Source: the human T2T-CHM13v2.0 reference genome, Homo sapiens. From it: DNA of 64,000 bases. The stretch covers positions 18,560,001-18,624,000 of the forward strand of contig CP086569.2 of NCBI GenBank assembly GCA_009914755.4. Direction: 5' to 3'. The number at the start of each line of letters is the position of its first letter. Position 1 is the stretch's first letter. Position numbers: made by a program. Below are positions 37,001 to 40,000 of the stretch, in pieces.

Positions 37001-40000
37001 TGCCTAGGTTTTCTTCTAGGGTTTTTATGGTTTTAAGTCTAACATGTAAGTCTTTAATCCATCTTGAATTAATTTTTGTATAAGGTGTAAAGAAGGGATC
37101 CAGTTTCAGCTTTCTACATATGGCTAGCCAGTTTTCACAGCACCATTTATTAAATAGGGAATCCTTTCCCCATGGCTTCTTTTTGTCAGGTTTGTCAAAG
37201 ATCAGATAGTTGTAGATATGTGGCATTATTACTGAAAGCTCTGTTCTGTTGCATTGGTCTATATCTCTGTTTTGTACCAGTACCAAGCTGTTTTGGTTAC
37301 TGTAGCCTTGTAGTATAGTTTGAAGTCAGGTAGTGTGATGCCTCCAGCTTTGTTCTTTTCACTGAGGATTGTCTTCGCAATGTGGGCTCCTTTTTGGTTC
37401 TGTATGAAATTTAAAGTAGTTTTTTCCAATTCTGTGAAGAAAGTCACTGGTAGCTTGATGGGGATGGCATTGAATCTATAAATTACCTTGGGCAGTATGG
37501 CCATTTTCATGATATTGATTCTTCCTACCCATGAGCATGGAATGTTCTTCCATTTGTTTGTATCCTCTTTTATTTCATTGAGCAGTGGTTTGTATTTCTC
37601 CTTGAAGAGGTTCTTCACATCCCTTGTAAGTTGGATTCCTAGGTATTTTATTATCTTTGAAGAAATTGTGAATGGGAGTTCATTCATGGTTGGCTCTCTG
37701 TTTTTCTGTTATTGGTGTATAATAATTCTTGTGATATTTGCTCATTGATTTTGTATCATGATACGTTGCGGAAGCTGCCTATCAGCTTAAGGAGACTTTG
37801 GGCTGAGACGATGGGGTTTTCTAAATATACAATCATGCCATCTGCTAAAAGGGAGAATTTGACTTCCTCTTTTCCTAATTGAATACCCTTTGCCTTCTTC
37901 TCCTACCTGATTTTCCTGGCCAGAACTTCCAACACTATGTGGAATAGGATTGGTGAGAGAGGTCATCTCTATCTTTTGCCAGCTTTCAAAGGGATTGTTT
38001 CCAATTTTTGTCCATTCAGTATGATTTTGGCTGTCAGTTTGTCATAGATAGCTTTTATTATTTTGAAAGACATCCCATCAATACCTAATTTATTGAGAGT
38101 TTTTTTTATTATTATTATACTTTAAGTTTTAGGGTACATGTGCACATTGTGCAGGTTAGTTACATATGTATACATGTGCCATGCTGGTGCGCTGCACCCA
38201 CTAACTCGTCTTCTAGCATTAGTTATACCTCCCAATGCTATCCCTCCCCCCTCCCCCCACCCCACCACAGTCCCCAGAGTGTGATATTCCCCTTCCTGCA
38301 AATCAAAACCACTATGAGATACCATCTCACACCAGTTAGAATGGCAATCATTAAAAAGTCAGGAAACAACAGGTGCTGGAGAGGATGTGGAGAAATAGGA
38401 ACACTTTTACACTGTTGGTGGGACTGTAAACTAATTCAACCATTGTGGAAGTCAGTGTGGCGATTCCTCATGGATCTAGATCTAGAAATACCATTTGACC
38501 CAGCCATCCCATTACTGGGTATATACCCAAAGGAATATAAATCATGCTGCTATAAAGACACAGGCACACGTATGTTTATTGCAACATTATTCACAATAGC
38601 AAAGACTTGGAACCAACCCAAATGTCCAACAATGATACACTGGATTAAGAAAATGTGGCACATATACACCATGGAATACTATGCAGCCATAAAAAGTGAT
38701 GAGTTCATGTCCTTTGTAGGGACATGGATGAAATTGGAAATCATCATTCTCAGTAAACTATCGCAAGAACAAAAAACCAAACACCGCATATTCTCACTCA
38801 TAGGTGGGAATTGAACAATGATATTGAGAGTTTTTAACAAGAAGCGTTGTTGAATTTTGTCAAAGGCCTTCTCTGCATCTATTAAGATAATCATGTGTTG
38901 TTTGTCTTTGGTTCTGTTTACATGCTGGATTATGTTTATTGATTTTCATATGATGAACCAGCCTTGCATCCGAGAGATGAAGCCCACTTCATCATGGTGG
39001 ATAAGCTTTTTGATGTATTGCTGGATCCAGTTTGCCATATTTTATTGAGGATTTTTGCAACAATGTTCATCAAGGATATGGGTCTAAAATTCTCTTTTTT
39101 TGTTGTGTCTCTGCCAGGCTTTGGTATCAGGATGATGCTGGCCTCATAAAATGAGTTAGGGAGGATTCCTTCTTTTTCTATTGATTGGAATAGTTTCAGA
39201 AGGAATGGTACCAGCTCCTCCTTGTACCTCTGTAGAATTCGTCTGTGAATCCATCTGGTCCTGGGCTTCTTTTTTGTTGGTAAGCTATTTATTATTGCCA
39301 CAATTTCAGAGTCTGTTATTGATCTATTCAGAGATTCAATTTTTTCCTGGTTTAGTCTTGGGAGAGTGGATGTGTCGAGGAATTTATCCATTTCTTCTAG
39401 ATTTTCCAGTTCATTAGCATTAGAGGTGTTTATAGTATTCTCTGATGGTAGTTTGTATTTCTGTGGGATCGGTGGTGATATCCTCTTTGTCATTTTTTAT
39501 TGTTTCTATTATATTCTTCTCTCTTTTCTTCTTTATTTGTCTTGCTAGTGGTCTGTCAATTTTGTTGATCTTTTCAGAAAACCAGCTCCTGGATTCATTG
39601 ATTTTTTGTAGAGTTTTTTGTGTCTCTATTTCCTTCAGTTCTGCTGTGATCTTAGTTTTTTCTTGCCTTCTGCTAGCCTTTGAATATGTTTGCTCTTGCT
39701 TCTCTGGTTCTTTTAATTGTGATGTTAGGATATCAATTTTATATCTTTCCTGCTTTCTCCTGTGGGCATTTAGTGTTACAAATTTCCCGCTACGCACTGC
39801 TCTGAATGTGTCCCAGAGATTCTGGTATGTTGTTTCTTTGTTCTCATTGGTTTCAAATAACATCTTTATTTCTGCCTTCACTTCGTTATGTACCCAGTAG
39901 TCATTCCAGAGCAGGTTGTTCAGTTTCCATGTAAATGAGCGGATTTGAGTGAGTTTCTTAATCCTGAGTTCTAGTTTGATTGCACTGTGGTCTGAGAGAC

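What the first reader, a model, noticed from the sequence alone, without database searches (positions are those of the whole stretch)
38091..38835. Twin-primed (5'-inverted) young L1 nested inside an older L1, itself inside alpha satellite, with a clean 14-bp TSD
Between two perfect copies of TATTGAGAGTTTTT lies a 717-bp L1 3' fragment. Its distal 194 bp (3'UTR plus short tail) are in minus orientation. The adjacent 523 bp (ORF2 C-terminus through the stop codon) are in plus orientation, with ~17 bp missing at the breakpoint. That is the signature of twin priming during target-primed reverse transcription. The target reads TTTTT|AA, a canonical L1 endonuclease site. The host L1 is continuous across the insertion. 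The nested copy appears ~96-97% identical to the homologous part of the full-length L1 at 60.3-60.8 kb, so it is markedly younger than the host. Three insertion layers (alpha, then L1, then L1) give a relative chronology for this pericentromere.
Basis: partly seen in the sequence, partly recalled or inferred. Interest (0 to 1): 0.55.

Follow-up and report, generated by a model that had tools for sequence, protein, structure and literature searches.

The report
Ordinary 5'-inverted L1 nested in L1
A 717-bp piece of a human LINE-1 jumping gene, with its front part flipped in the way about one in five LINE-1 insertions are, sits inside an older full-length LINE-1 in pericentromeric alpha satellite; the description holds, but this is a routine, well-understood structure.

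Summary
Two exact copies of TATTGAGAGTTTTT (38091-38104 and 38822-38835) bracket 717 bp of L1 sequence.

- **Direct segment:** 38105-38298 is the L1 3'UTR with a 3-nt A remnant, antisense on the + strand.
- **Inverted segment:** 38299-38821 is the last 171 codons of ORF2, its stop codon and 7 nt, sense on the + strand.
- **Gap and junction:** the two pieces are adjacent in L1 coordinates. The inversion junction has a 2-nt TG microhomology.
- **TSD:** the 14-mer occurs once at the homologous site of two other L1 copies in the window. Removing the insert and one copy restores a colinear host L1, so it is a true target-site duplication.
- **Nick site:** 5'-TTTTT/AA-3'.
- **Host:** a full-length, decayed L1 (36089-42755, minus strand) with its own 13/14 TSD inside monomeric alpha satellite.

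This is the textbook product of twin priming, which is seen in about 18-22% of L1 insertions.

Two corrections:
- Identity to the 60-kb L1 is 95.2% (ORF2 part) and 90.2% (3'UTR), not 96-97%.
- The element carries GAG rather than ACA in the 3'UTR. It is L1PA2 or older, so it is only "young" relative to its host.

Already known; low interest.

The parts
38091..38104 (.). TSD copy next to the poly(A) end of the nested L1 (TATTGAGAGTTTTT). Its 3' T-run is the first-strand primer.
   Evidence: Exact 14-mer. Single copy at the homologous site of two other L1s.
38105..38298 (-). Non-inverted, poly(A)-primed segment of the nested L1: 3'UTR from CAGGAAGG... to ...AATAATAATAAA, followed by only a 3-nt A remnant (38105-38107). 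The diagnostic trinucleotide GAG is at 38205-38207 (CTC on the + strand).
   Evidence: BLAST to 61048-60855 at 90.2%. Alignment. GAG indicates L1PA2 or older (PMC7026601).
38297..38298 (.). Inversion junction. The dinucleotide TG could belong to either segment (2-nt microhomology).
   Evidence: BLAST HSPs overlap at insert positions 193-194. Sequence read.
38299..38821 (+). Inverted, internally primed segment of the nested L1: ORF2 codons for residues 1105-1275 (38299-38811), stop TGA (38812-38814) and the first 7 nt of the 3'UTR.
   Evidence: BLAST to 60317-60841 at 95.2%. Open 171-codon translation. 161/171 identical to PDB ORF2p, E 7e-113.
38822..38835 (.). Second TSD copy. On the minus strand its 3' end (...CTCAATA-3') is the inferred second primer. 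The pre-insertion first-strand nick lies after 38835 (TTTTT/AA).
36089..38090 (-). Host L1, 3' part: ORF2 from about the RT region to the 3' end. It includes a 228-bp deletion near 36416, 22 nt of non-L1 sequence (36098-36119) and a T9 tail (36089-36097).
   Evidence: Aligns to reference L1 58852-61047 at 88-89%. Sequence.
38836..42755 (-). Host L1, 5' part: 5'UTR, ORF1 and the ORF2 N-terminal two thirds.
   Evidence: Aligns to reference L1 54909-58865 at 87.2%. The 5' end GGGGTGCAGCCAAGATGGCC is read.
36075..36088 (.). Host L1 TSD, left copy (TCTTACTTATTTTC), made of alpha-satellite sequence.
   Evidence: 13/14 match with 42756-42769. Alpha coverage ends at 36087.
42756..42769 (.). Host L1 TSD, right copy (TCTTTCTTATTTTC). 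Alpha satellite resumes here.
34731..36087 (+). Divergent (monomeric) alpha satellite flanking the host L1 on the left.
   Evidence: TRF period 171, 72% matches. BLAST coverage with an alpha dimer.
42756..51768 (+). Divergent (monomeric) alpha satellite flanking the host L1 on the right.
   Evidence: TRF period 172-173, 71-77% matches..

Best explanation
One L1 retrotransposition event, resolved by twin priming, inserted a 717-bp 5'-truncated and 5'-inverted copy of an L1PA-type element (L1PA2 or somewhat older) into the ORF2 region of a pre-existing full-length L1. That host L1 had earlier inserted into monomeric alpha satellite.

The inferred steps are as follows.
1. L1 endonuclease nicked the window's + strand at 5'-GAGTTTTT/AACAAG-3'.
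2. The T-run annealed to the A-rich 3' end of an L1 RNA. It primed the first cDNA, which covers the 3'UTR (now 38105-38298).
3. The other strand was cut 14 nt away, at 5'-CTCAATA/AATTAGG-3' on the minus strand.
4. Its 3' end annealed inside the same RNA, just 3' of the ORF2 stop codon. It primed a second cDNA running 523 nt towards the RNA's 5' end (now 38299-38821).
5. The two cDNAs were joined at a TG microhomology. 13 nt of L1 between the two priming and stopping points were lost.
6. Gap fill-in duplicated the 14-nt target.

Shown by the sequence: the anatomy, the TSD, the nick motif, the L1 coordinates, the nesting order and the relative decay. Inferred from the established model: the order of nicks, the two priming events and the use of a single RNA. 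The element has no function; it is a dead insertion.
For: **TSD.** Exact 14-bp repeats lie at the precise insert edges. The 14-mer is single-copy at the homologous position of two other L1s. The host, reconstructed without the insert and one repeat copy, is colinear with them.

**Two opposite-orientation L1 segments.** They are adjacent in L1 coordinates: 60317-60841 and 60855-61048 of the reference copy, a gap of 13 nt. The 3'-most base of the inverted segment abuts the TSD far from the poly(A) end, as the model requires.

**ORF2 identity.** Residues 1105-1275 of PDB ORF2p, E 7e-113.

**Nick site.** TTTTT/AA.

**Fit to published descriptions.**
- 5' inversions are found in 18-22% of L1 insertions. 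In 46% of them the two cDNA ends lie within 20 bp of each other. Median TSD length is 13 bp (PMC12016303).

**Nesting and relative age.**
- The nested copy has an open 171-codon frame and is 94.2% identical to ORF2p. The 60-kb L1 is 87.1% identical with 2 stops. The host has a frameshift and a 228-bp deletion.
The coding part of that remembered sequence translates exactly to the PDB sequence.
- AT skew of the host is interrupted exactly in the 38-39 kb bin.
Against: - The poly(A) tail is almost absent: 3 A beyond the L1 end, or at most 8 if the T5 of the TSD is counted. This is short even for an old insertion.
- Microhomology between the inferred second primer and the L1 RNA is weak (2 of the last 3 nt, with a terminal mismatch).
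- No orthologous or allelic empty site could be examined. The 'empty site' evidence comes from paralogous L1 copies.
- The mechanism itself cannot be observed in a sequence.
Confidence: 0.94

Rival explanations
1. Two RNAs or two events: a 194-bp severely 5'-truncated L1 insertion, plus a separate L1 fragment captured at the same break ('dual priming', template switching to a second L1 RNA, or two successive insertions).
For: Dual priming has been proposed as a theoretical alternative that gives similar architectures (PMC2837659). The two segments differ in identity to the 60-kb L1 (95.2% against 90.2%).
Against: The segments are separated by only 13 nt in L1 coordinates. That is expected for one RNA and has a chance of roughly 0.3% for an independent priming site on a 6-kb RNA (inference). 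There is a single TSD pair, and the plus-oriented segment has no tail or TSD of its own. Both segments are similarly close to the L1HS reference: 13/523 and 7/194 differences. The 95% against 90% difference is due to decay of the comparison copy's 3'UTR.
Confidence: 0.03
2. An ordinary 5'-truncated L1 insertion of about 730 bp whose 5' 523 bp were later inverted by a DNA-level rearrangement.
For: It cannot be excluded from one haplotype alone. Satellite regions are prone to rearrangement; for example, the L1 at 10865-15265 has lost its 3' end.
Against: One inversion breakpoint would have to fall exactly at the insert/TSD boundary without disturbing the TSD or the host sequence. No inverted repeats are present to drive it. 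The pattern, including a small deletion and 2-nt microhomology, is exactly the common retrotransposition outcome (PMC12016303).
Confidence: 0.02
3. Not an insertion at all: an internal rearrangement or duplication of the host L1, with the 14-bp repeats being host L1 sequence or chance.
For: The 14-mer is indeed part of the L1 sequence (also found in the L1s at 58852 and 11426).
Against: It occurs once, not twice, in the other L1 copies. The host already has its own copies of the inserted region, at 36133-36634. They are only 87-94% identical to the insert and much more decayed. The insert is closer to L1HS than the host is: 97.9% against 91.0% over the same 488 columns.
Confidence: 0.01

Closest known systems
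Twin-primed (5'-inverted) L1 insertions (Ostertag & Kazazian 2001; described in PMC2837659 and PMC12016303)
   Same: One TSD pair. A poly(A)-side non-inverted segment and an adjacent upstream inverted segment of the same L1. A small deletion at the junction (13 nt) and junction microhomology (2 nt). A TTTT/A-type nick site and a 14-bp TSD. Segment lengths (194 and 523 bp) are within published ranges: medians 253/292 bp for somatic and 571/751 bp for germline insertions.
   Different: Nothing qualitative. The A-tail is unusually short (3-8 nt), and the non-inverted part is on the short side for a germline insertion.
L1-in-L1 nested insertions
   Same: A younger L1 is inserted at a T-rich endonuclease site inside an older L1. 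PMC12016303 reports that insertions tend to lie within reference TEs of their own type, and PMC7026601 describes L1Hs insertions nested in reference L1s.
   Different: Here the nested copy is not human-specific L1Hs. It is an older L1PA type (GAG in the 3'UTR).
Transposon-based dating of divergent pericentromeric alpha satellite (for example L1PA3 in the Y pericentromere, PMC5886786; X-centromere age-gradient work by Schueler et al., from my own knowledge)
   Same: Monomeric alpha satellite peppered with L1, Alu and ERV insertions. Their subfamily ages give minimum ages for the satellite layer.
   Different: This is only a single locus.

Membership tests
LINE-1 (primate L1PA lineage) sequence | Coding homology to human L1 ORF2p | tested here: met
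   38299-38811 matches ORF2p residues 1105-1275: 161/171 identical, E 7e-113.
LINE-1 (primate L1PA lineage) sequence | L1 3'UTR ending in an AATAAA-containing A-rich terminus | tested here: met
   The reverse complement of 38105-38298 aligns over its full length with the 3'UTRs of two other L1 copies of the window.
Endonuclease-dependent TPRT insertion | Target-site duplication of about 7-20 bp flanking the insert | tested here: met
   Exact 14-bp repeats at the insert edges. The sequence is single-copy at the homologous site in two other L1s.
Endonuclease-dependent TPRT insertion | Nick at a 5'-TTTT/A-3'-like motif on the strand that primes from the poly(A) | tested here: met
   The pre-insertion + strand reads GAGTTTTT/AACAAG, and the T-run continues into the tail remnant.
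Endonuclease-dependent TPRT insertion | Poly(A) tail at the 3' end | tested here: inconclusive
   Only 3 A follow the L1 terminus before the TSD's own T5/A5 run. The tail is 3-8 nt depending on how the boundary is assigned.
Endonuclease-dependent TPRT insertion | Orthologous or allelic empty site | not testable with these tools
   No human or primate genome collection is available. Look-ups for the junction-spanning ORF and a metagenome junction scan found nothing. Only paralogous L1 copies could be used.
Twin-priming 5'-inverted L1 insertion | Two fragments of the same L1 in opposite orientation inside one TSD pair | tested here: met
Twin-priming 5'-inverted L1 insertion | The inverted fragment comes from L1 sequence immediately upstream of the non-inverted fragment, and its 3'-most base lies next to the TSD distal to the poly(A) | tested here: met
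   In reference-copy coordinates the inverted fragment is 60317-60841 and the non-inverted fragment 60855-61048. Position 60841 abuts the TSD at 38822.
Twin-priming 5'-inverted L1 insertion | Small deletion or duplication of L1 sequence at the breakpoint | tested here: met
   13 nt (GAnCACATGGACA) are missing. Published data put 46% of cases within 20 bp.
Twin-priming 5'-inverted L1 insertion | Microhomology at the inversion junction and between the second primer and the L1 RNA | tested here: inconclusive
   2-nt TG at the junction. Only 2 of the last 3 primer bases can pair with the RNA (read). The literature says microhomology is often small or absent.
Twin-priming 5'-inverted L1 insertion | Two priming events on one RNA during a single TPRT reaction | not testable with these tools
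   This is a mechanistic inference. It cannot be read from a fixed genomic copy.
Human-specific L1Hs (Ta / pre-Ta) | ACA or ACG trinucleotide at the diagnostic 3'UTR position | tested here: not met
   The sense strand reads GAC-GAG-TTAGTGGG (CTC at 38205-38207). GAG indicates L1PA2 or older (PMC7026601).
Monomeric (divergent) alpha satellite as outermost layer | Head-to-tail monomers of about 171 bp with low inter-monomer identity and no high-identity higher-order repeat | tested here: met
   TRF periods of 171-173 bp at 65-77% matches. The 343-bp periods are only 72-73%. All blocks share one orientation and abut the host L1's TSDs.

The most novel reading that the evidence does not exclude
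The most novel reading not excluded is that the nested insertion is lineage-specific within the great apes, either absent from some ape orthologues or still polymorphic. Together with the host L1, it would then bracket the age of this particular monomeric alpha-satellite layer and could serve as a phylogenetic or haplotype marker for the pericentromere. A more exotic variant is that the 224-codon ORF running through the inversion junction (38140-38814) is expressed. Nothing supports that.
Probability: 0.3. Interest if true: 0.15.

Novelty: already known. Interest (0 to 1): 0.08.

Why it matters
It matters little beyond annotation. It is a clean, instructive example of a twin-primed L1 with every hallmark readable. 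The nesting order gives a relative chronology for this pericentromeric segment: alpha satellite, then a full-length L1, then an L1PA2/3-like fragment. That kind of TE-based dating of divergent alpha satellite is already standard practice (PMC5886786). No new biology or open question depends on it.

Tried and rejected
- **Pfam scan of the 171-aa ORF2 C-terminus:** no family. The PDB sequence search gave the identification instead.
- **Rfam scan of the whole window:** nothing.
- **Other assemblies.** I tried to find the locus elsewhere to test presence or absence. Exact-protein look-ups of the junction-spanning 224-aa ORF and of the 166-aa Met-started ORF were both not on record. An exact 29-nt inversion-junction pattern had 0 matches in metagenome contigs. 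I did not scan genome contigs, which holds bacterial and archaeal genomes only, or phages, plasmids and E. coli, because they are irrelevant for a human repeat.
- **Original twin-priming paper (PMC311219):** not held. I used secondary descriptions.
- **No L1 consensus library is available.** Its coding part translates exactly to the PDB ORF2p sequence. Synonymous sites and the 3'UTR part remain unverified, so percentages against 'L1HS' are approximate.
- **Rejected explanations:** chance repeat, host-internal duplication, two independent insertions and post-insertion inversion (see rivals).

Full report
**What is there.** Reading 37800-39100 shows the exact 14-mer TATTGAGAGTTTTT at 38091-38104 and 38822-38835. 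A pattern search with up to 1 mismatch finds 4 matches in the window, against 0.14 expected from shuffles. The other two are at 58852-58865 (minus strand, exact) and 11426-11439 (1 mismatch). Both lie inside other L1 copies at the homologous position. The 14-mer is therefore ordinary L1 ORF2-region sequence that occurs once per L1.

**The insert.** BLAST of 38105-38821 (717 bp) against the window gives two matches to the full-length L1 at 54905-61055.
- Insert positions 193-717 match 60317-60841 in the same orientation: 95.2% identity, 25 mismatches, no gaps.
- Insert positions 1-194 match 61048-60855 in the opposite orientation: 90.2% identity.

The 523-bp plus-oriented part translates as an open frame of 171 codons followed by TGA at 38812-38814. 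It aligns end to end with residues 1105-1275, the C-terminus, of human L1 ORF2p from several PDB entries. The match is E 7e-113 with 161/171 identical residues.

The 194-bp minus-oriented part is the L1 3'UTR from CAGGAAGG to AATAATAATAAA. Only three further A residues precede the TSD.

**Contiguity and junctions.** In the coordinates of the reference copy, the inverted segment ends at 60841 and the direct one starts at 60855. Thirteen nucleotides (GAACACATGGACA in that copy) are missing.

At the inversion junction (38297-38298) the dinucleotide TG can be assigned to either segment, which is why the two BLAST matches overlap by 2 nt.

The topology is the one twin priming predicts. On the element's sense strand the order is:
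- TSD;
- inverted segment, with its 3'-most L1 base next to that TSD;
- junction;
- direct segment;
- A remnant;
- TSD.

**True TSD and intact host.** The host flanks align to the reference L1 as 42750-38822 with 54909-58865 and 38104-36416 with 58852-60536. They overlap by exactly the 14 nt 58852-58865. A reconstructed empty site, with the insert and one repeat removed, is colinear with two other L1 copies, each of which has a single copy of the 14-mer.

The pre-insertion + strand reads GAGTTTTT/AACAAG. The T-run continues into the tail remnant, so the first-strand nick is at a consensus 5'-TTTT/A-3' site. The second nick, 14 nt away, falls at 5'-CTCAATA/AATTAGG-3' on the minus strand. This follows from the TSD boundaries. 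The 3' end of that strand can pair with the L1 RNA at only 2 of its last 3 bases, so microhomology there is weak.

**Layers.** TRF and a BLAST with an alpha dimer show monomeric alpha satellite in a single orientation. The period is 171-173 bp, with 65-77% matches between copies. It stops at 36087 and resumes at 42756.

Between these points lies the host L1, on the minus strand at 36089-42755. It reaches the canonical 5' end...GGCCATCTTGGCTGCACCCC on the + strand. It has a T9 tail and its own TSD, TCTTACTTATTTTC / TCTTTCTTATTTTC (13/14), made of alpha sequence.

The order is therefore alpha satellite, then the host L1, then the nested L1. AT skew of the host (-0.27 to -0.40) is interrupted in the 38-39 kb bin (0.00), consistent with the sense-oriented 523 bp.

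**Relative and absolute age.** The measured values are 95.2% and 90.2%, or 93.9% overall. Similarity to another decayed copy is also not a measure of age. Better evidence is as follows.
- **Coding integrity.** The nested copy keeps an open frame and is 94.2% identical to ORF2p. The 60-kb L1 is 87.1% identical with two stops. The host has a frameshift and a 228-bp deletion in the same region.
- **Identity to an L1HS reference.** Its coding part translates exactly to the PDB sequence, but it is otherwise unverified. Identities to it are 97.2% (nested), 93.7% (60-kb L1) and 91.0% (host). Over the 488 columns present in all four sequences they are 97.9%, 93.2% and 91.0%.
- **Private changes.** In a three-way comparison the nested copy has 9 private changes in 717 bp and the 60-kb copy has 34.

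The 3'UTR diagnostic trinucleotide is GAG, not ACA or ACG. According to PMC7026601, GAG indicates L1PA2 or older, and L1PA2 amplified before the human-chimpanzee split. The element is thus clearly younger than its host, but it is not a human-specific young L1. A guess of L1PA2-L1PA3, of the order of 3-15 Myr, is reasonable but needs a consensus library.

[quoted passage not shown] Long-read surveys report the following (PMC12016303):
- 5' inversions in 21.9% of somatic and 18.4% of germline L1 insertions;
- the two cDNA ends within 20 bp of each other in 46% of cases;
- median TSDs of 13 bp;
- enrichment of insertions within TEs of their own type.

Dating divergent pericentromeric alpha satellite by its L1PA insertions is established practice (PMC5886786). 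Every feature here falls inside these distributions. The only mildly unusual trait is the near-absence of an A-tail.

**Rivals.** Three alternatives were considered.
- **Two independent RNAs or events.** This is disfavoured by the 13-nt adjacency, the single TSD pair and the similar divergence of both segments from L1HS (13/523 and 7/194).
- **A later DNA inversion.** It would need a breakpoint exactly at the insert/TSD boundary.
- **A host-internal rearrangement.** This is excluded because the host keeps its own, far more decayed copy of the same L1 region at 36133-36634.

**What could not be done.** No human or primate genome resource was available. Look-ups for the junction-spanning ORF and a junction scan of metagenome contigs found nothing. 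Presence or absence in other haplotypes and apes therefore remains untested.

**Verdict.** The phenomenon is already known and common, and interest is low.

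Noticed in passing
window 36089-36119: Between the host L1's 3' end (starting at 36120) and its T9 tail (36089-36097) lie 22 nt of non-L1 sequence (aaatgtctaaccccatcacaat on the + strand). This could be a very short 3' transduction or a corrupted tail. 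The host TSD (36075-36088 / 42756-42769) matches 13/14, and the nick site is TTTTC/AT.
   Followed up: partly
window ~36416: The host L1 has a 228-bp deletion inside the ORF2 C-terminal region, relative to the nested copy and the 60-kb L1. It also has a frameshift just upstream.
   Followed up: partly
window 38140-38814 (+): A 224-codon ORF (GTG start) reads through the antisense 3'UTR and the inversion junction in frame into the ORF2 C-terminus. It is almost certainly fortuitous. The exact protein is not on record in the protein collection.
   Followed up: yes
window 10865-15265 (-): Another L1 has an intact 5' end but lacks the 3' 1.6 kb or so and any tail. It abuts alpha satellite directly at 10864/10865 and has an internal deletion of about 120 bp. 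This suggests a post-insertion deletion or unequal exchange in the satellite rather than TPRT truncation.
   Followed up: partly
window 54891-61069: A full-length but dead L1 (+ strand, 54905-61055, stops in ORF2) has a perfect 14-bp TSD, AAAAGAAAATCCTG (54891-54904 / 61056-61069). It lies in AT-rich non-satellite DNA. Alpha satellite ends at 51768, so the window spans the edge of the alpha domain.
   Followed up: partly
window 16302-17510 (-) and 31973-32356 (+): There are betaretrovirus-like (HERV-K-like) ERV fragments inside the alpha satellite. The non-alpha block 16340-18338 has gag pieces (Pfam Gag_p10 E 2e-13; Gag_p24_C E 1e-5, just below the cut-off). The block 31065-34730 has an env piece (HERV-K_env_2, E 1e-19). 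They are in opposite orientations.
   Followed up: partly
window 1-45, 482-801, 7851-8141, 9973-~10110, 19543-19852: Alu elements interrupt the alpha satellite. All have their poly(T) on the left, meaning minus orientation. The one at 9973 is truncated after about 140 bp. They were identified by eye from the sequence; Rfam gave no hit at gathering thresholds.
   Followed up: no
window 52046-52212 and 61961-62128: A 168-bp inverted repeat pair (77% identity) flanks the 60-kb L1 region. It is probably two copies of an old interspersed repeat.
   Followed up: no
window 38470-38472 vs 60490-60492 vs host ~36460: At ORF2p residue 1162 the nested copy and the 60-kb L1 share Met (ATG), while the older host and L1HS have Arg (AGG). 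This hints at a side lineage or a reversal in the L1PA succession, or at parallel change.
   Followed up: no
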